From NCBI GenBank assembly GCA_011364965.1, contig RDOB01000007.1, positions 1 to 64,000 of the forward strand: a stretch of 64,000 bases of DNA, read 5' to 3'. Shown here one piece after another: positions 17,645-48,188 of this stretch. How positions within the stretch are numbered: position 1 is the first letter of the stretch; the number at the start of each line of letters is the position of its first letter. The notes under the pieces were generated by a model. It saw only the letters and a program-made list of their open reading frames with translations, was not told where the DNA came from and did not search any database. The position numbers and the translations under genes are program-made. Source of the stretch: Candidatus Heimdallarchaeota archaeon. Its GTDB lineage: Archaea; Asgardarchaeota; Heimdallarchaeia; Hodarchaeales; Hodarchaeaceae.

Positions 17645-17742
17645 AAGTCACCCCTTATGATGAAAAAGACGGTCTACGGAGGTCTTATGCCCAATTTTCA
17701 TTGGGTGCTGAGACTGATGACGAAAGTTGCACTTACTGACTT
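17645..17742 (+). ncRNA. Atypical box C/D sRNA with a structured insert
   Basis: C ATGATGA 17657-63, D' CTGA 17708-11, C' CTGATGA 17714-20, D CTGA 17736-39; two hairpins between C and D'. Confidence 0.7.
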
Positions 17743-39343: not shown

Positions 39344-40546
39344 TTATACAATTTCCTTTAGTATTTTTAGTATCTGGAGTTCTTGGGCAGTTGTTTTTAT
39401 TGTACTTCCAGAATAGTGAGTTTTTCCGCTGTTATACTTCTTTTCTCTTAATTTTTCAATAATAATTTCCGTTGGAGGTATTCGGGTTCCTACTTTTTTT
39501 GCTAGAGCCTGTAGATCATACGACCAAGGTTGATCAATATTAACTTCTCCTTTCATGTTGTCTAACACTTTTAATAGGGTCTTTTTAGTTCCCAAATTTT
39601 CCATATGGGGGTCTAAAATGATCTTTTGAATAAGATTTTCATTTTGTAAATGCCCCAAATACAATGGTCCTACCCTTGCAATTTCTGTAGAAGAACATTT
39701 TGAACACTGGACATTCTTGTCTCCGATATGTGTCATAAATATTGTCTGGCATTTTCTACAACGATTTAGAAAACCTGTTTTATCAAGTACCCTAGCCACT
39801 CCCCGATAACGAAGAAAGAATGAACGAATGAAATGTCTATGATAGAAGGTCAAGATGGGTATTAATGATTGGTTAATAATCAATCCCACATGTTGAACTC
39901 CTGTTGTTAATGCTCTAGATGCCAGTTCATGGATATTCCCTATTCGTTCGTCAAATTGACTTAAACAATATTTAGAGAATAATGCTTTTGGATATATACC
40001 TGCCAAGCTTGCTAGATCAGTTGACGTGACCGCAATAAGTCCTTCAATTCCTACAATTTTTATACTATTTAATATAAATGGAATTGGGCTGCCAAATGGA
40101 TCAATATCAACGAAATCAAAGTTCTTATTGTTTTGATGGTGCATCTGAAGAAAATCATTTGCGTCTTGATTGAATACTCTAAAATATTTGGATTCTAATG
40201 ATAAATTCTTAATATTCCGAGTAGTATAAATTGTTGCAATAGTATTGCTGTCATTACAATATAAATCAGAAGTAGGTGTTTCTAATAAATAGCGCCCACT
40301 CCGTATCCCGACTCCGCATAAAGGTTCACACCCCCGAAGGGGAGTTTTATTCAGAAATATGCTATAAGCTCGTAAAACTAATACAGAAAGATCTCTATTG
40401 ATTTCTTGATATGGATTAAAAAACACATCATCTGTTTTTTTTGGGACTTTCTGCTCTCGAGTACTTGAAGGGATTTTAAATGAACCTAATCCTTCTTTGA
40501 TGGTTTTTAATTCTTGAGAATTCTCCATAAAGGACTCATCCCTCAT
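39344..40546 (-). CDS. trm1: tRNA (guanine-26-N2)-dimethyltransferase
   Basis: VFFNP...NRDLS, GVGIRSGRY, VDIDPFGSP, GPLYLG. Confidence 0.93.
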   Translation of the reverse strand: MRDESFMENSQELKTIKEGLGSFKIPSSTREQKVPKKTDDVFFNPYQEINRDLSVLVLRAYSIFLNKTPLRGCEPLCGVGIRSGRYLLETPTSDLYCNDSNTIATIYTTRNIKNLSLESKYFRVFNQDANDFLQMHHQNNKNFDFVDIDPFGSPIPFILNSIKIVGIEGLIAVTSTDLASLAGIYPKALFSKYCLSQFDERIGNIHELASRALTTGVQHVGLIINQSLIPILTFYHRHFIRSFFLRYRGVARVLDKTGFLNRCRKCQTIFMTHIGDKNVQCSKCSSTEIARVGPLYLGHLQNENLIQKIILDPHMENLGTKKTLLKVLDNMKGEVNIDQPWSYDLQALAKKVGTRIPPTEIIIEKLREKKYNSGKTHYSGSTIKTTAQELQILKILKEIV

Positions 40547-41192
40547 CAGCTAATAGCAAAAATGCTATATTATACTTTACTTTACCGCGACCTTTACCTT
40601 TCGTTGCTACAATATACGTTTCAGCACTGCTGGATCGGGATGTCGGAGGTTTGTGAACCTTAACGACTTCATAATACTCTTTAATCTTTGCTATTAGATC
40701 CTTAAAATATTCCCCATGAAAAACTTTCGTTAAAAAAGCTGATGCTAGAAAATAATTGGAAATCCCGAGAGAAACTTCAGCTAACCAAATTTGCCGTGCG
40801 TGATCTGTAACCCAATGCCCAGAGACATTTGGGGAGCAATCTGCAAGCACTATATGTTCTCGATGTTCCACACCGTGTTTAATAATGCTCTCTTGAAGGA
40901 GATGAATCGTATCGAGTTGTGTAATATCACCTTGAATAATCTCTGTGATTTTTGGAATAGGCCGGACTCTTGCCATGTCAACTAAAAAAATTGCTGCCTT
41001 GGATTGAGTTTGATCTCGTGCTATTTGAGAAAATCCTCCAGGTGCGCCACAGAGATCGATTATGGTTTGATTTTCTCTAAAAATATTGAACTTTTTATCA
41101 ATTTGAAGTAATTTATAAGCTGCTCGACTCCTGAATCCTTCTTGTTTTGCTTTTTTTGAATAAAAGTCTCGTTTTTTCCGCAGATAAAACAC
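40536..41192 (-). CDS. rlmE: 23S rRNA 2'-O-methyltransferase RlmE/FtsJ
   Basis: GFRSRAAYKL, DLCGAPGG, DCSPNVSG, KPPTSR..SAETY. Confidence 0.93.
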   Translation of the reverse strand: MFYLRKKRDFYSKKAKQEGFRSRAAYKLLQIDKKFNIFRENQTIIDLCGAPGGFSQIARDQTQSKAAIFLVDMARVRPIPKITEIIQGDITQLDTIHLLQESIIKHGVEHREHIVLADCSPNVSGHWVTDHARQIWLAEVSLGISNYFLASAFLTKVFHGEYFKDLIAKIKEYYEVVKVHKPPTSRSSSAETYIVATKGKGRGKVKYNIAFLLLADEG

Positions 41193-41217
41193 CCAATGAT
41201 ATAATTTAGTGATTGAT

Positions 41218-41628
41218 TTATTTCCTTCTTCTAGGTTTGAAATCTTTCCTCTCTTGTGTTTCCCCTCTTAATCGCTGGATTCTTTTTGGTCTCTTTTTCT
41301 TTGCTTCTTTAAGGAGCTCTTTCTTTTGTTTTTCTAAAGCTGGTCGAATGTAAGACCTTACCTGATTACTAAGATCCTTCAGTGTTTGTTGTTTACCTAT
41401 TTTTTTCTCAACAAGAATTATTCCATTTGGTTCCCACCAGTGGCGGGGATATGCAGCATCCTTTCGAGTTTCATAACTAAGACCAATTTTTTCCGCTGCT
41501 AAACGTAATTCTGTTAGTGATGGGTTTTCAATTGCTTCATTCAGCGGTAGTCTGCGCCCCTCCTTCCTTGTAAGGGATTTATCAAAATATTCAGGAAATA
41601 TAAAGTAATGAGTATTATCTAAACGCAA
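41218..41628 (-). CDS. srp19: Signal recognition particle protein SRP19
   Basis: IFPEYFD..LTRKEGRRLP...AIENP, AYPRHWW. Confidence 0.95.
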   Translation of the reverse strand: MRLDNTHYFIFPEYFDKSLTRKEGRRLPLNEAIENPSLTELRLAAEKIGLSYETRKDAAYPRHWWEPNGIILVEKKIGKQQTLKDLSNQVRSYIRPALEKQKKELLKEAKKKRPKRIQRLRGETQERKDFKPRRRK

Positions 41629-41912
41629 TTTTTTTCTCTACTCCGATTAACTTGGGCTAGTTTCAAAATTATATGTTTTTTCATGATACTGTAATCATTA
41701 CAATAGGTAATTCAACATTTGGTCGTTTTGCGTGTAATAGAGAAAAACCAATAATATAACAGCATATGGTTCATTCAAGGACTTTATGTATCGTAATAAG
41801 GTCAATTCCCCTCACTTTCATTGTACAGAAAGATTTAATCTAAATAAATTAAAATCAAATGTTGAGAAAGGTTTTACTTTGGATTTACGGACATTTAATG
41901 AGATGAGAGAAA

Positions 41913-43706
41913 ATGGTAACCAATCCAGAAAAATCTCCTTTAATGAGGAGTCCTATTACAGTAATTTTAGGTCATGTGGATTCTGGAAAAACCAGTTTAT
42001 TGGATAAAGTTCGCGGAACTGCTGTACAATCGAGAGAATCAGGTGGAATAACGCAGCATATTGGCGCCAGTTTTTTTCCCATTGAAACTGTTAATTCATT
42101 ATGTGGTTCTTTACTTGCACCTGGAAAGAGAACATTACAAATTCCAGGGATTTTGATAATCGACACTCCTGGGCACAGTTCCTTTATGAATTTAAGACAA
42201 AGAGGAGCAAGTGCAGCCAATTTTGCTATCCTTGTTGTAGATGTTCGACGGGGAATACAACCACAAACTGTTGAATCTTTACGTATATTGGTAAAACAAA
42301 AAGTTCCATTCTTAATTGCAGCAAATAAAGTAGATCGTCTTCCTGGATGGAAGAGTAATCTAAATATATCAATGGCTAAATCTTTAAGGGATCAACCGCC
42401 ATCCGCTTTGGAGGCACTTGATGCAATAATTTATGATATAATGGCAGAACTTAGTCATTTTAATATTGAACCAGAGCGATTTGATAAAATCAAGAACTTT
42501 GCAAAGAAAGTAGCTATCATCCCTACATCTGCTATAACTGGCGAGGGAATCCCCGAATTATTTCTGGTATTGGCAACACTAACTGAGCAATATCTTCGAA
42601 CTCAACTTGAATTACACTTAAATAAAGGTCGAGGAGTAGTTTTAGAAGTAAAAAAAGAAGTGGGCCTTGGAACAACACTTGATGTGATTCTTTTTGATGG
42701 CGTAATCAAACAAAATTCACAAATAGTGATCGCTGGAGTCAATGGGCCGATCTCTACATATATTCGGGCAATATTATTACCAAAGGATTTAGATGAAATA
42801 AGGGATCCTCGGAATAAATTTGAGAATGTAGATCAAGCTGTCGCCGCTATCGGAGTAAAACTTGTTGCACCCAACATTGATGATGCCATAGCCGGTTCTT
42901 CACTTTATGTAGTCGATGATTACGAGAAAGCTGAGGCTGTTCATCGGATTGAGGAGGAGCTAGCTAATATTCTTGTAGAAACCGATGAGGCAGGAGTTAT
43001 TGTGAAAGCTGACACCTTGGGTTCATTAGAAGCTCTTGTGAATTATCTAAGAGACAATAATATTCACATAAGATTTGCATCAGTAGGTGATGTGACCAAA
43101 AAGGATGTATACCAAGCATCTTTATCAAAAGATGAAAATAAGCTCTATGGTGTTATTCTAAGTTTCAGAACAAATTCCACTTTAGAAGCAATAGATGAAG
43201 CTGAGAAACATCAGATTCCAATTATTGGAAGTGACATTATATATCGATTGGGAGAGGAATATCAAAATTACGAGTATGAAGTCCAGAAACAGCTGGAGCA
43301 AGAAGCACTTAAAGGCATTGTGAGACCTGGGAAAATTAAGGTTCTCCCATACGTCTTTCGGCAGTGTAAACCATGTATTGTTGGTGTTGAGGTTTTATCG
43401 GGGACACTTACACCTCAAGTGGATCTAATAAATCGAGAAAACAAAAAGATAGGGACTTTAATTCAAATTCAAGATAAAGGGGAAAACTTATCAGAAGCTA
43501 AGGTTAATGAACAAGTCGCAGTTGCTATCAAAGGTCCTACTCACGGACGACAGATAGAAGAAGGAGATGAGCTCTGGGTAGATGTTCCTGAATCTCATTC
43601 TCGAAGAATCTTGAAAGAAAAACTCCTCTCCCCGACTGAAATGGATGCTCTTAATGAGCTAGTCGAAATTAAACGAAGGACTGCGAACAAGTATTGGGCA
43701 CTGTAA
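41913..43706 (+). CDS. infB: Translation initiation factor aIF5B/IF-2
   Basis: RSPITVILGHVDSGKT, GGITQHIGAS, IDTPGH, KADTLGSLEAL. Confidence 0.97.
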   Translation: MVTNPEKSPLMRSPITVILGHVDSGKTSLLDKVRGTAVQSRESGGITQHIGASFFPIETVNSLCGSLLAPGKRTLQIPGILIIDTPGHSSFMNLRQRGASAANFAILVVDVRRGIQPQTVESLRILVKQKVPFLIAANKVDRLPGWKSNLNISMAKSLRDQPPSALEALDAIIYDIMAELSHFNIEPERFDKIKNFAKKVAIIPTSAITGEGIPELFLVLATLTEQYLRTQLELHLNKGRGVVLEVKKEVGLGTTLDVILFDGVIKQNSQIVIAGVNGPISTYIRAILLPKDLDEIRDPRNKFENVDQAVAAIGVKLVAPNIDDAIAGSSLYVVDDYEKAEAVHRIEEELANILVETDEAGVIVKADTLGSLEALVNYLRDNNIHIRFASVGDVTKKDVYQASLSKDENKLYGVILSFRTNSTLEAIDEAEKHQIPIIGSDIIYRLGEEYQNYEYEVQKQLEQEALKGIVRPGKIKVLPYVFRQCKPCIVGVEVLSGTLTPQVDLINRENKKIGTLIQIQDKGENLSEAKVNEQVAVAIKGPTHGRQIEEGDELWVDVPESHSRRILKEKLLSPTEMDALNELVEIKRRTANKYWAL

Positions 43707-43846
43707 GAAAAAAATTACTACAACAACAATTAAGAATCTCAAACTTCCGCACATCTAATGACACCTATACATCTATAATCTGATGTATTTTTATCCCCAA
43801 CATTATTCGGTTACTTGATATTATTAAAAAGATAAGAGATGAGTTT

Positions 43847-44227
43847 ATGGTAAGATTTCAACTTAATATAGCAGATGGGAAACAAAGTTACAAGAAGGAA
43901 ATCGATGCGGATGCCATGACCCGTCAACTCATAGGAAAATCGCTTGGTGATGAGCTTGAAGGAGAGGTAATCGGTTTTGATGGTTATCACTTCAGAATTA
44001 CAGGAGGAAGTGATCATGCAGGCTTTCCAATGGCACCAGGTATCGAAGGAGCGATGCCTAAACGAATTTTAATTGGTCATAGGGGAGTAGGATATAAACC
44101 TACACGAGCTGGAAAACGAAGACGGAAGCGAGTTCGTGGGGCAATGATAAGCGAAGATATATATCAAATAAATCTAAAGATTCTAAAAAGAGAAAACAAA
44201 GCAAAATCAATAGAAGAATTACTTTAA
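43847..44227 (+). CDS. rps6e: Ribosomal protein eS6
   Basis: ITGGSDHAGFPM, RRRKRVRG, QINLKI. Confidence 0.96.
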   Translation: MVRFQLNIADGKQSYKKEIDADAMTRQLIGKSLGDELEGEVIGFDGYHFRITGGSDHAGFPMAPGIEGAMPKRILIGHRGVGYKPTRAGKRRRKRVRGAMISEDIYQINLKILKRENKAKSIEELL

Positions 44228-44246
44228 GAGATTTTCGAGGCTTGAT

Positions 44247-45563
44247 ATGCCAGTTAAGAAGAGAAAAAGCACCCGAAAAAGGAAAACACCAGCTGCAGTT
44301 GCGGCTATAAGTGTACAGGAAATTCCAAACCAAGCCGAGATTTCCATAGGCATGATTGGACATGTAGATCATGGTAAATCCACTTTAACAAAAGCATTAA
44401 CTGGAAAATTCCCTGATACTCATAGTGAGGAAATTCGGAGAGGGATCTCAATTCGCTTGGGGTACGCAGAAGTAGAATTTCGTGCATGCCCTGAATGTGC
44501 AAGCCCCGAAAAATATACCACACAAAAGATTTGTCAAATCTGTGGCAAAGAAACAACTCTTCTAAGGCGAGTAGCATTTGTAGATGCCCCTGGCCACGAA
44601 GTCCTTATGGCAACAATGTTATCTGGCGCAAGTATCATGGATGCTGCGATTCTAGTAGTCGCAGCTAATGAACGTGTCCCCATGCCTCAAACAAGAGAGC
44701 ATCTTGCTGCTATGGATATTATTGGAATGGAAAATATCATTATTTGTCAAAATAAAATTGAACTAATAAGCGAGAAAGCTGCAATACAAAATTATAAAGA
44801 TTTAAAGTCTTTTATCTCGACTACATCCGCTAAAAAAGCTCCAATTATCCCAATAAGCGCAGTACATAATACAAACTTGGATATTCTCATTCAAAATATA
44901 GAAGAAAATCTCCCTACTCCAGAACGAGATGATACTCTTTCTCCCAGAATGCTGGTTGCTAGATCTTTTGATATAAATAAACCTGGACAACCACCCATGG
45001 GTTTAAGAGGAGGGGTTGTCGGTGGAAGCATTATTCAAGGTAAATTTAGTGTTGGAGATGATGTGGAAATCCACCCAGGTATCCGAAAAGGAAATAAATG
45101 GGAATTTCTTCGAACTGAGATATCTAGTTTAAGAAGTGGATTTGGAGAGCTTGAAACTGCTCTCCCAGGAGGATTGATTGGTCTTGGAACTAATCTAGAT
45201 CCTGCATTGACGAAGAGTGACTCCCTTGTTGGACAAATCGTTGGTTATCCTGACGAATTACCTCCCTCGTGGGATATTCTACATTTTGATCAACACTTAA
45301 TGGAAAGGGTTGTTGGTAGTGAAATTCAATCTGCAGTAACAAATATTGAACTGAATGAGAATTTAATGTTGAGTGTTGGGACTGCAAAAACTGTCGGAAA
45401 GGTAGAGCAATTAAGTAAAAAAGGTATTCAACTTTCTCTTCGAATTCCTGTTTGTGCAGAGATTGGTACTCGAATAGCTATCAGTAGACAGATTGATCGT
45501 CGGTGGCGGTTAATCGGCTGGGGAGTAATAAAGGGGGGAACTGAGTTACGAACCCGCAATTAA
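44247..45563 (+). CDS. eif2g: Translation initiation factor aIF2 gamma subunit
   Basis: GHVDHGKS, RRGISIRLGYA, Zn knuckle, DAPGHE, RWRLIGWG. Confidence 0.97.
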   Translation: MPVKKRKSTRKRKTPAAVAAISVQEIPNQAEISIGMIGHVDHGKSTLTKALTGKFPDTHSEEIRRGISIRLGYAEVEFRACPECASPEKYTTQKICQICGKETTLLRRVAFVDAPGHEVLMATMLSGASIMDAAILVVAANERVPMPQTREHLAAMDIIGMENIIICQNKIELISEKAAIQNYKDLKSFISTTSAKKAPIIPISAVHNTNLDILIQNIEENLPTPERDDTLSPRMLVARSFDINKPGQPPMGLRGGVVGGSIIQGKFSVGDDVEIHPGIRKGNKWEFLRTEISSLRSGFGELETALPGGLIGLGTNLDPALTKSDSLVGQIVGYPDELPPSWDILHFDQHLMERVVGSEIQSAVTNIELNENLMLSVGTAKTVGKVEQLSKKGIQLSLRIPVCAEIGTRIAISRQIDRRWRLIGWGVIKGGTELRTRN

Positions 45564-45976
45564 ATTCCGATTCAAATCTTAATTCAGCAATCCATATTAT
45601 TCTGGATTCAAATTTTGTAATGGCAATCACTCAGATGAAAGGTTTGAGCATAAACGATGAACTTGATCGTGTTGTTCCTAGATTACGGAAACTAATTGCA
45701 CTGAGTCCAATAAAAGAAGAACTAATCAAATTATCCCAAACAGGAAATTCTAAGACCCGAATGCAAGCTAAAATTGGTCTAAAATTCATAGAAAAGTATG
45801 CTAATACTCAAGAAGTCACTTATTTTCATAAAAACATAGACTTTATTCTTTTAGACTACGCAGAGAAACAGAAGGGAATAATTGCTACCAATGATCGAAA
45901 ATTACGGAAATTTGCAGGGAAAAAAGGAATAAAAACACTTTATATTAGAAATCGCCAGTTTTTAGAATTGAAGTAA
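45545..45976 (+). CDS. PIN-domain protein (Fcf1/Utp24-like); true start uncertain and upstream of the first ATG at 45620
   Basis: In-frame IILDSNFVM ahead of the ATG; EEL, IDFILL, IATNDRKLR; conserved position after eif2g. Confidence 0.8.
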   Translation, partial: VTNPQLNSDSNLNSAIHIILDSNFVMAITQMKGLSINDELDRVVPRLRKLIALSPIKEELIKLSQTGNSKTRMQAKIGLKFIEKYANTQEVTYFHKNIDFILLDYAEKQKGIIATNDRKLRKFAGKKGIKTLYIRNRQFLELK

Positions 45977-46110
45977 ACGAAATTTAATGTATTTTAAATT
46001 CAACTTCTATAGGGAGATTCATAAATACACATATATTTGAGGTTTTACGGCATTTCTGAAGATTAAAAGTAAATTAATCCCTAAACATTTTAATGGAAAT
46101 ATTATAAATA

Positions 46111-46183
46111 GCCGCTGTGGCTTAGTTGGTAGAGCGACAGACTTGTAATCTGTTGGTCGAGGGTTCAAGTCCCTCCAGCGGCT
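46111..46183 (+). tRNA. tRNA-Thr(TGT)
   Basis: GCCGCTG/CAGCGGC acceptor; ACAGA-CTTGTAA-TCTGT anticodon arm. Confidence 0.95.
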
Positions 46184-46468: not shown

Positions 46469-46882
46469 ATGAATTCGTCTGATTTAACAATTTCATGGAA
46501 CTATCTAGATACGGGTCATTGTGCATTCAAAACCAAGTCAACAAAACCTGGAAAAATTCGATGTAGCCATTTGTTTACTGTTACTGGTGCTCATAAATTT
46601 ACTGATTGCCCATTAATTCAACCAACCTATGTTTCCTTTCAACGCCAAGAAGAACTTGTTTATCTAATAGAGAAACATCCAAAAGAAGCTCCTGCTTCAA
46701 TGTGGGGGTTTACTGAACTTCCAGCAGATAGAGAGAAAGCGAGGAAAATAGTAGAGAAAGCTGTTAAAAATCTTAACCACGATTTAAAACAAACCATCTG
46801 GAACCGCTTTGAACAACAATTTGATGTTGCTGAAGTAGTAAAAGCCAGTGAAGAATTGAAGGAAGAAGAAGAGGAAGATTAG
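46469..46882 (+). CDS. mak16: Mak16/eL28-family protein
   Basis: SD..W....GHCAFK....C....VTG.H....CPL....Y.....VYL.EK...P..MW....L....A, collinear with the eukaryotic Mak16 N-domain; acidic tail. Confidence 0.8.
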   Translation: MNSSDLTISWNYLDTGHCAFKTKSTKPGKIRCSHLFTVTGAHKFTDCPLIQPTYVSFQRQEELVYLIEKHPKEAPASMWGFTELPADREKARKIVEKAVKNLNHDLKQTIWNRFEQQFDVAEVVKASEELKEEEEED

Positions 46883-46910: not shown

Positions 46911-46987
46911 AAACGAGCGCCTATGATGAAACCTGACAAGCATGAGAAATTCGATGAAATATTATAGTTACTCTGAGCTGCTCGTTT
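46911..46987 (+). ncRNA. Dual-guide box C/D sRNA predicted to target LSU rRNA H69 and H71
   Basis: Terminal stem AAACGAGC/GCTCGTTT; C 46923-29, D' ATGA 46942-45, C' TCGATGA 46951-57, D CTGA 46973-76; guides complementary to conserved AGUAACUAUAA and CUUGUC(A)GGU. Confidence 0.9.
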
Positions 46988-47072
46988 TTTTCATTCTATT
47001 CCATTTATGGGCTTTTATCTTGTTGATGAACAATGATGAACAATCTAGCAAACTCTGGAAGTTCATATTGAT

Positions 47073-48188
47073 TTGATATCTTCCAATGAATTTAATTTTC
47101 TAATAGGAAAAAATGTTATTTTATTACGCTTGGGAGGCGAATTGGGAGTAAAAAGTAGACGTACTCGTTCTAGAATGGTCAGGCAATTAAGTTACAATAT
47201 AGAACAAACTCAATCTTTTCAAGCCTGTAGTTCATGTAAAATTACCTCTTATAGAAATCGTTTGGTGATTTGGTCAGAAAATGTAACAGATTGGGCTCCT
47301 TTGGCGAAAGAGATTTCAGAAACGGTCAGTGGGGTCTCTTCGCTTAGTCTCGCTATTGTTCTTGATTCAAATAAAGAAACTATAATATGTAAAGCATATA
47401 ATTCAATAAAAGATGAATTGAGACCCGAAATAAGTTTTGCAGTGAGAGTACGACGAGAAGGAAAACATTCTTACTCGTCAAGAGACATCGCAAGAGAACT
47501 TGGATCGAAAATATTGGAATCTAACATCTTGAATTTAAGAGTTGATCTAGAAAGACCTGATTTAGAAATTTTTCTTGACATTCGAGGCTCTCTTGCCTTT
47601 ATTTATACGCGAATATTGTCCGCAATGGATGGAATTCCTTCTAAAGTTCAGGGTAAAGCGATTATGATTCTTAAACCACATTATAATTCACTTCTTGCTG
47701 CATTTTTAATGAAAAAAAGAGGAGTTGAAATAATTCCTGTTTTTTTTGAAACAGGCCACGAATTAGAGAAGATATTTCAAGATTATACACAAAAACTATT
47801 CTTCCAAAAAATGAGAAAAAGGTCAATTCAATCTAGTTTGGAGAGATTTAAAGATAGTAAATCACTATGTTTTCTCTGTCAGGCTTTTTGTGAGGCCTAT
47901 TGCCAAGAAATCGCTATTAATGAGAATATAGGTACAATAATATCCCCCACCTGCTTCAAATTTAATAAAGAAACTATTTCATTGCCAGCTCTCGAATTCC
48001 TTGAATCTACTTCTAAATTACCTGTGCTTCGTCCAATTCAATTCGGTTATTTTGGTGAAAGTTTAAAACTTGAAGTCCCTGATAGTGGCACATGTTGTAG
48101 ATATCGGTCCACACTAGAAATCCTTATCTCAAATGATATTAAGGAAGCTACAAAGAAATTCTTTGATTTTTCTAGAAAACAAGATTAA
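47073..48188 (+). CDS. ThiI-like THUMP-domain protein with degenerate PP-loop
   Basis: LRLGGELGVKS, SFAVRVRREGKH, VDLERPD, DGIP...QGK; LKPHYNS in place of LSGGIDS. Confidence 0.75.
   Translation: MISSNEFNFLIGKNVILLRLGGELGVKSRRTRSRMVRQLSYNIEQTQSFQACSSCKITSYRNRLVIWSENVTDWAPLAKEISETVSGVSSLSLAIVLDSNKETIICKAYNSIKDELRPEISFAVRVRREGKHSYSSRDIARELGSKILESNILNLRVDLERPDLEIFLDIRGSLAFIYTRILSAMDGIPSKVQGKAIMILKPHYNSLLAAFLMKKRGVEIIPVFFETGHELEKIFQDYTQKLFFQKMRKRSIQSSLERFKDSKSLCFLCQAFCEAYCQEIAINENIGTIISPTCFKFNKETISLPALEFLESTSKLPVLRPIQFGYFGESLKLEVPDSGTCCRYRSTLEILISNDIKEATKKFFDFSRKQD

What the first reader, a model, noticed from the sequence alone, without database searches (positions are those of the whole stretch)
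46911..46987. Single C/D sRNA behind mak16 predicted to guide two eukaryote-type LSU methylations
Seen: a clean C/D RNA 28 nt after mak16. The D guide TTATAGTTACT pairs with helix-69 AGUAACUAUAA, and the N+5 rule selects the second A of GUAAC. The D' guide AACCTGACAAG pairs with CUUGUCAGGUU, matching the conserved CCUUGUC of helix 71, and N+5 selects the G. Established: the homologous yeast 25S positions are Am2256 (snR63) and Gm2288 (snR75). Inference: one Asgard dual guide does the work of two separate eukaryotic snoRNAs and is co-located with a 60S assembly factor, suggesting an ancestral large-subunit maturation cassette. The organism's 23S is not in the window, so pairing is inferred from conserved rRNA sequence.
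Basis: partly seen in the sequence, partly recalled or inferred. Interest (0 to 1): 0.75.

Follow-up and report, generated by a model that had tools for sequence, protein, structure and literature searches.

The report
Asgard dual-guide rRNA methylation RNA
This is a real small guide RNA of an Asgard archaeon, built to direct sugar methylation at two nearby large-subunit rRNA positions that yeast also methylates, but the same two-target guide is already catalogued in a crenarchaeon and its place behind the mak16-like gene is a local arrangement, not an ancient cassette.

Summary
Observation confirmed. 46911-46987(+) is a box C/D sRNA 28 nt behind a Mak16-like gene, kept there in all 21 same-genus genomes with both flanks assembled or downstream DNA. 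This genome lacks the target part of 23S; in same-genus 23S the D guide pairs 11 bp (selects E. coli A1913 = yeast Am2256) and the D' guide 10 bp (G1945 = Gm2288), 32 nt apart; both guides track 23S changes across Asgard families. Ignicoccus hospitalis sR91 (Dennis 2015, RNA-seq detected) has the same layout and target pair. The family also occurs in Sulfolobales and Desulfurococcales metagenome contigs and in most Asgard families searched, so the sites are not eukaryote-type. Other Mak16-bearing Asgard genomes keep the two genes apart; the widest-spread neighbour is rpl35ae (eL33). Methylation itself is untested. Residual interest: an unusually old guide family, a candidate forerunner of the SNORD46/snR63 and U15/snR75 clans (unproven; guides are forced by targets). 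This scan reported the same RNA before in at least five other genomes.

The parts
46911..46987 (+). Box C/D sRNA gene including terminal stem (mature ends not determined)
   Evidence: model R1 match E 1e-14, by construction
46911..46918 (+). 5' arm of terminal stem
   Evidence: across the genus own arms pair at -11.5 kcal/mol against -7.6 for swapped and -4.4 for shuffled arms
46923..46929 (+). Box C (ATGATGA)
46931..46940 (+). D' guide, 10 bp to 23S helix 71; selects G1945 (E. coli) = yeast G2288
46942..46945 (+). Box D' (ATGA, degenerate; GAAA in two relatives)
46953..46959 (+). Box C'-like motif (degenerate)
46962..46972 (+). D guide, 11 bp to 23S helix 69 loop; selects A1913 (E. coli) = yeast A2256
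46973..46976 (+). Box D (CTGA)
46980..46991 (+). 3' arm of terminal stem running into a T7 tract (possible terminator; inference)
46469..46882 (+). Mak16-like gene (PF01778 eL28/Mak16 domain only, 137 aa, Cys-Cys-His-Cys at the Mak16 cysteine positions); neighbour, not shown to be a functional partner
47073..48188 (+). THUMP/ThiI-like gene, the usual downstream neighbour in this genus

Best explanation
An ordinary archaeal dual-guide box C/D sRNA, member of an old family shared by Asgard archaea and Thermoprotei (the family of Ignicoccus sR91). It is probably cut out of the 3' end of the mak16-like transcript (inferred). L7Ae binds the C/D kink-turn and the weaker C'/D' motif, Nop5 and fibrillarin assemble on it, the D guide pairs with the helix 69 loop and the D' guide with helix 71 of pre-23S, and fibrillarin 2'-O-methylates A1913 and G1945 (E. 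coli numbering). Shown: anatomy, conservation, complementarity, guide/target covariation, presence of the three protein genes. Inferred from established family biochemistry: expression here, RNP assembly, methylation. The place behind mak16 is a lineage-specific relocation; the gene only needs a transcribed context.
For: Anatomy. Both guides invariant in the genus while spacer and stem vary. 11 and 10 bp duplexes with genus 23S, 32 nt apart, best sites in all rRNA and tRNA tested; 0 of 200,000 shuffles. Within single genomes the D guide follows the TATAAC/TATGAC change and the D' guide follows TGTCAGG/TGTCGGA/TGCCGGA/TGCCGGG, with G-U or single mismatches in some. Fibrillarin, Nop5 and L7Ae-family genes in this genome. 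Ignicoccus sR91: same order of guides, same targets A2179/G2211 in an alignment where A2178 = E. coli A1912, RNA-seq coverage 770 (PMC4644070). 21 of 62 metagenome hits carry the crenarchaeal loop variant; neighbours named Acidianus, Stygiolobus, Sulfolobus sp., Ignisphaera, Desulfurococcales. Archaeal sRNA genes are mobile and mostly co-transcribed with neighbours (PMC7994747).
Against: This genome's own 23S target region is unassembled; pairing rests on three same-genus genomes. The D' box is degenerate and is GAAA in two relatives, and the D' guide has decayed or shifted in several Asgard families, so G1945 methylation may be partial. No methylation map of an Asgard rRNA was found in the library searched, and the Ignicoccus targets are predictions too.
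Confidence: 0.85

Rival explanations
1. Only the D guide methylates (A1913). The D' guide acts as an extra base-pairing or chaperone arm that holds helix 69 and helix 71 open during assembly, without efficient methylation of G1945.
For: D' and C' boxes are degenerate throughout the family; D' guide lost in some Loki-type families while the D guide stays; the chaperone role of linked guides is proposed in PMC4644070.
Against: The C opposite G1945 is invariant and sits at exactly D'+5 across Asgard and Thermoprotei; Thermoproteus sR130 has the same guide before a perfect CTGA.
Confidence: 0.1
2. One reading: an ancestral mak16-sRNA large-subunit maturation cassette inherited on the line to eukaryotes.
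For: Linkage in 21 of 21 genus genomes with downstream DNA and in one more Hodarchaeales lineage from metagenomes (L124, L138), downstream of an aIF5B-eS6-aIF2gamma-PIN-tRNA cluster.
Against: Unlinked in G022 (same order), about 52 kb apart in G295 and G296, on different contigs in G285, G290, G291, G397, G398. Most Asgard families carry the sRNA but no PF01778 match (33 of 400 genomes have one). The neighbour shared by distant lineages is eL33. No evidence that Mak16 acts on helix 69-71 or with this RNP.
Confidence: 0.04
3. Chance motif cluster in an AT-rich intergenic region, or a guide for another RNA.
For: No Rfam hit at gathering score; weak folding z-score; the D' guide resembles SNORD27's 18S guide.
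Against: Conservation, covariation and shuffle control; the matching 16S site gives only 7 bp with a G-U pair.
Confidence: 0.01

Closest known systems
Ignicoccus hospitalis C/D sRNA sR91 (Dennis et al. 2015, PMC4644070, Additional file 1)
   Same: Same order (C, helix 71 guide, D', C', helix 69 guide, D); same predicted targets A1913 by D and G1945 by D'; similar length.
   Different: Guides fit Hodarchaeales 23S variants; A+T-rich degenerate D'/C'; longer terminal stem; gene behind a Mak16-like gene. sR91 was detected by RNA-seq; this one was not tested.
Thermoproteus tenax sR30/130 and Pyrobaculum calidifontis sR54
   Same: D' guide predicted to target G1945 (alignment G2211).
   Different: Their D guide targets alignment U2233, not A1913.
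Eukaryotic SNORD46/U46, yeast snR63, Giardia GlsR7, Dictyostelium DdR4, snoR442
   Same: Same site (yeast Am2256, human Am3739). In the four Rfam models seen, the near-identical guide lies directly before box D, as here.
   Different: All scores are far below gathering cut-offs; similarity is confined to boxes and the target-dictated guide; none carries the helix 71 guide.
Eukaryotic U15/snR75 clan (Rfam CL00045)
   Same: Guides the G1945 equivalent (yeast Gm2288, Arabidopsis Gm2278); placed in LECA.
   Different: Plant U15 couples this site with the Am2281 equivalent, not with A1913. No Rfam match to my sequences. That U15 uses its D' guide for this site is from memory, not tested.

Membership tests
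Archaeal box C/D sRNA | Terminal box C (RUGAUGA) and box D (CUGA) closed by a stem | tested here: met
Archaeal box C/D sRNA | Internal D' and C' boxes with 10-12 nt guides, 50-70 nt body | tested here: met
   54 nt from C to D; D' ATGA and C' GATGAAA degenerate but positionally conserved
Archaeal box C/D sRNA | Guides complementary to rRNA or tRNA with a Watson-Crick pair at N+5 | tested here: met
   11 and 10 bp on same-genus 23S; covariation; own 23S region unassembled
Archaeal box C/D sRNA | Fibrillarin, Nop5 and L7Ae encoded by the host | tested here: met
Archaeal box C/D sRNA | Expressed as a small RNA | tested here: inconclusive
   no RNA run holding this organism was listed; the Ignicoccus counterpart is expressed
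Archaeal box C/D sRNA | 2'-O-methylation of the targets | not testable with these tools
   needs RiboMeth-seq, mass spectrometry or in vitro assay
Ignicoccus sR91 family (A1913 + G1945 dual guide) | D guide to A1913 and D' guide to G1945 on one RNA | tested here: met
Ignicoccus sR91 family (A1913 + G1945 dual guide) | Common descent rather than convergence | tested here: inconclusive
   supported by same guide order, broad distribution and a shared eL33 neighbour in Asgard and Ignisphaera-type contigs; orientation to eL33 differs, and no tree is possible on so short an RNA
Eukaryotic SNORD46/snR63 or U15/snR75 clans | Rfam score above gathering cut-off | tested here: not met
   SNORD46 14-17 bits against 40; GlsR7 15-19 against 75; no U15 or snR75 match
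Mak16 (upstream protein) | eL28-like N-terminal domain closer to Mak16 than to eL28 | tested here: met
   PF01778; only Mak16 chains found in the PDB
Mak16 (upstream protein) | Four cluster-binding cysteines and the C-terminal Mak16 domain | tested here: not met
   third Cys is His here (His in 12, Cys in 9 of 21 genus sequences); 137 aa against about 300 aa, no C-terminal domain match
Mak16 (upstream protein) | Role in large-subunit assembly | not testable with these tools
   inferred from eukaryotic homologues only

The most novel reading that the evidence does not exclude
[quoted passage not shown] It would be one of very few individual guide RNAs traceable across the archaea-eukaryote divide; Hoeppner and Poole 2012 (PMC3511168) could not place any firmly.
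Probability: 0.25. Interest if true: 0.55.

Novelty: new member of a known kind. Interest (0 to 1): 0.3.

Why it matters
As a single RNA it is an annotation gain: Rfam has no model for it. The useful point is depth. Archaeal methylation sites are usually not conserved beyond a genus (PMC6009581), yet this guide pair persists in most Asgard families searched and in Sulfolobales and Desulfurococcales, and both sites are methylated in yeast and other eukaryotes. That suggests Am1913 and Gm1945 at the subunit interface are old modifications and gives a concrete test case for whether any eukaryotic snoRNA descends from an archaeal sRNA. It gives no support for a Mak16-based maturation cassette.

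Tried and rejected
Own-genome 23S and 16S: only the 23S 3' end is assembled. The full 23S on G001:C57 was left out: it is about 65% identical to the other genus copies and looks like a contaminant. Rfam at gathering score: nothing for the window or nine related loci. Expression: no RNA holder listed, and the four RNA runs laid only on the tRNA, from other organisms; no evidence either way. A second box-C-like motif at 47033 is not conserved in relatives and gave no rRNA guide: rejected. A 16S target for the D' guide (likeness to SNORD27) gives only 7 bp: rejected. The L006 D' row is a script mis-pick; the true guide is. Many D-guide-only pattern hits are chance (reverse-pattern control about as frequent in the large families) and were dropped after inspection. 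R1 hits weaker than about E 1e-5 were counted only where read by eye. Paper searches found no catalogue of Asgard C/D sRNAs and no source for which U15 guide serves Gm2288. Euryarchaeal and DPANN genomes could not be searched systematically.

Full report
1. Observation. The 137-aa ORF 46469-46882 ends 28 nt before an 8-bp stem arm (46911-46918). Box C (46923-46929), a 10-nt guide (46931-46940), box D' ATGA (46942-46945), a C'-like motif (46953-46959), an 11-nt guide (46962-46972), box D (46973-46976), the second stem arm (46980-46987) and a T7 tract follow. Rfam has no match at gathering score; the weak matches are nearly all C/D families.

2. Host. The genome is an Asgard archaeon, most likely Hodarchaeales (inference): PF01778 is reported only from Hodarchaeales, Njordarchaeia and Wukongarchaeia, and a related protein cluster is named Hodarchaeales. 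It encodes fibrillarin, Nop5 and L7Ae-family proteins.

3. Conservation. All 21 other genomes of the genus carry the Mak16-like gene with the sRNA directly behind it, usually followed by the THUMP/ThiI gene. Both guides are invariant; spacer, the base before D' and the stem vary. Own stem arms pair better (-11.5 kcal/mol) than swapped (-7.6) or shuffled arms (-4.4); kin are not independent, so this is descriptive.

4. Targets. This assembly holds only the 3' end of 23S. Three same-genus genomes supply helix 69-71. The D guide forms 11 Watson-Crick pairs and N+5 selects the second A of GUAAC. The sites are 32 nt apart and are the best in 16S, 23S and 20 tRNAs by at least 3 pairs; 0 of 200,000 shuffled guide pairs did as well. 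They equal E. coli A1913 and G1945 and yeast Am2256/snR63 and Gm2288/snR75 (the yeast to E. coli offset is from my own knowledge). In genomes holding both sRNA and 23S, the guides change with the rRNA: G065 and G296 have the TATGAC loop and the matching D guide; G062, G065, G296 and G397 have different helix 71 sequences and matching D' guides; a few keep G-U pairs or one mismatch.

5. Distribution. Pattern and model searches show both guides in families f1, f2, f4, f8-f11, f13-f15, f18, f20, f22, f24-f26, f28, f29, f32 of the phylum; eight of these were not needed to build the model's two-guide signal. In f19 and f27 the D' guide has decayed, in f3 it has slid about five bases, in f31 it differs. 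A metagenome scan gave 62 hits, about 5 expected by my rough estimate; 21 have the crenarchaeal loop variant. Their neighbours are DNA ligase with dCTP deaminase or eL33, named Acidianus, Stygiolobus, Sulfolobus sp., Ignisphaera and Desulfurococcales.

6. Prior knowledge. Dennis et al. 2015 list Ignicoccus hospitalis sR91 with targets 23S A2179 and G2211 in an alignment where A2178 is E. coli A1912. Its sequence has the same layout and was seen by RNA-seq. Thermoproteus sR30/130 and Pyrobaculum sR54 also target G2211. Helices 68, 69 and 71 are known archaeal hotspots, and two close targets per sRNA are common. So the RNA works like, and by every feature testable here belongs to, the archaeal C/D sRNAs and the sR91 type.

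7. The mak16 link. The protein matches only Mak16 chains in the PDB but is the N-terminal domain alone, with His for the third cysteine in 12 of 21 genus sequences. PF01778 is found in 33 of 400 genomes. Outside the genus the linkage appears only in one metagenomic Hodarchaeales lineage (L124, L138). It is absent in G022 of the same order, the genes are about 52 kb apart in G295 and G296, and on separate contigs with no sRNA behind mak16 in the others inspected. The recurring neighbour is rpl35ae (eL33): within about 200 nt in f9, f15, f28, f29, f31, f32, f33 and in Ignisphaera-type contigs, in varying orientation. eL33 was not found with PF01247 in 24 genomes of this order, while 4 of 5 controls rang. 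The simplest reading (inference) is that the gene once sat by rpl35ae and moved behind mak16 in part of the Hodarchaeales. Archaeal sRNA genes mature from whatever transcript holds them.

8. Mechanism. Shown: anatomy, conservation, complementarity, covariation, host machinery. Inferred: co-transcription with the mak16-like gene, trimming, RNP assembly, and methylation of A1913 and G1945 at the subunit interface (0.85). Main rival: a D' arm that pairs but does not methylate well (0.10).

9. Relation to eukaryotes. SNORD46, GlsR7, DdR4 and snoR442 carry the same guide before box D, but scores are far below cut-off and the guide is dictated by the target. The U15/snR75 clan is placed in LECA, and no LECA snoRNA has been firmly tied to an archaeal sRNA. 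Descent from this family is possible, not shown (0.25).

10. Verdict. Real; targets correctly predicted; new member of a known kind; cassette claim not supported. Interest 0.3. Earlier agents of this scan reached the same reading on other genomes; I saw those notes only, and they are not independent evidence.

Noticed in passing
genomes of this order (G000-G023): Ribosomal protein eL33 (PF01247) was not found in any of 24 genomes of the order, and gave only five weak hits in long frames among 83 of the class, while 4 of 5 controls rang. Not found with this query; may be lost or too divergent.
   Followed up: partly
window 46469-46882; L003-L024, L124, L202-L229: The third Mak16 cysteine switches between His and Cys within one genus (12 against 9) and is His in G397 too; metal ligation may differ.
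   Followed up: partly
window 17657-17739 (+): Second candidate C/D sRNA in this window with a 10-nt match to genus 23S before box D.
   Followed up: no
G000 C11:135025-135104 (+) and C8:1077-1122 (+): Two more intergenic C/D-like candidates with a 10-nt match to genus 16S or 23S.
   Followed up: no
G000 C12:515019-515329 (L001) and genus relatives: The last roughly 250 nt of 23S are found apart from the rest in many genus genomes, in two copies in some; possibly a split 23S gene, or an assembly effect.
   Followed up: no
G001:C57 (L028): A full archaeal 23S only about 65% identical to the other genus copies: probably a contaminant contig.
   Followed up: partly
L276, L277 (family f3): The D' guide has slid about five bases along helix 70-71 while the D guide still points at A1913: a clear case of guide drift.
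   Followed up: no
window 39344-46183: Cluster of translation and RNA-modification genes: Trm1-like, FtsJ/RlmE, SRP19, aIF5B, eS6, aIF2-gamma, PIN protein, tRNA-Thr.
   Followed up: no
L026, L027 record titles: Two near-identical loci of this genus are deposited as 'Heimdallarchaeota' and 'Thorarchaeota'; the second label looks wrong.
   Followed up: no
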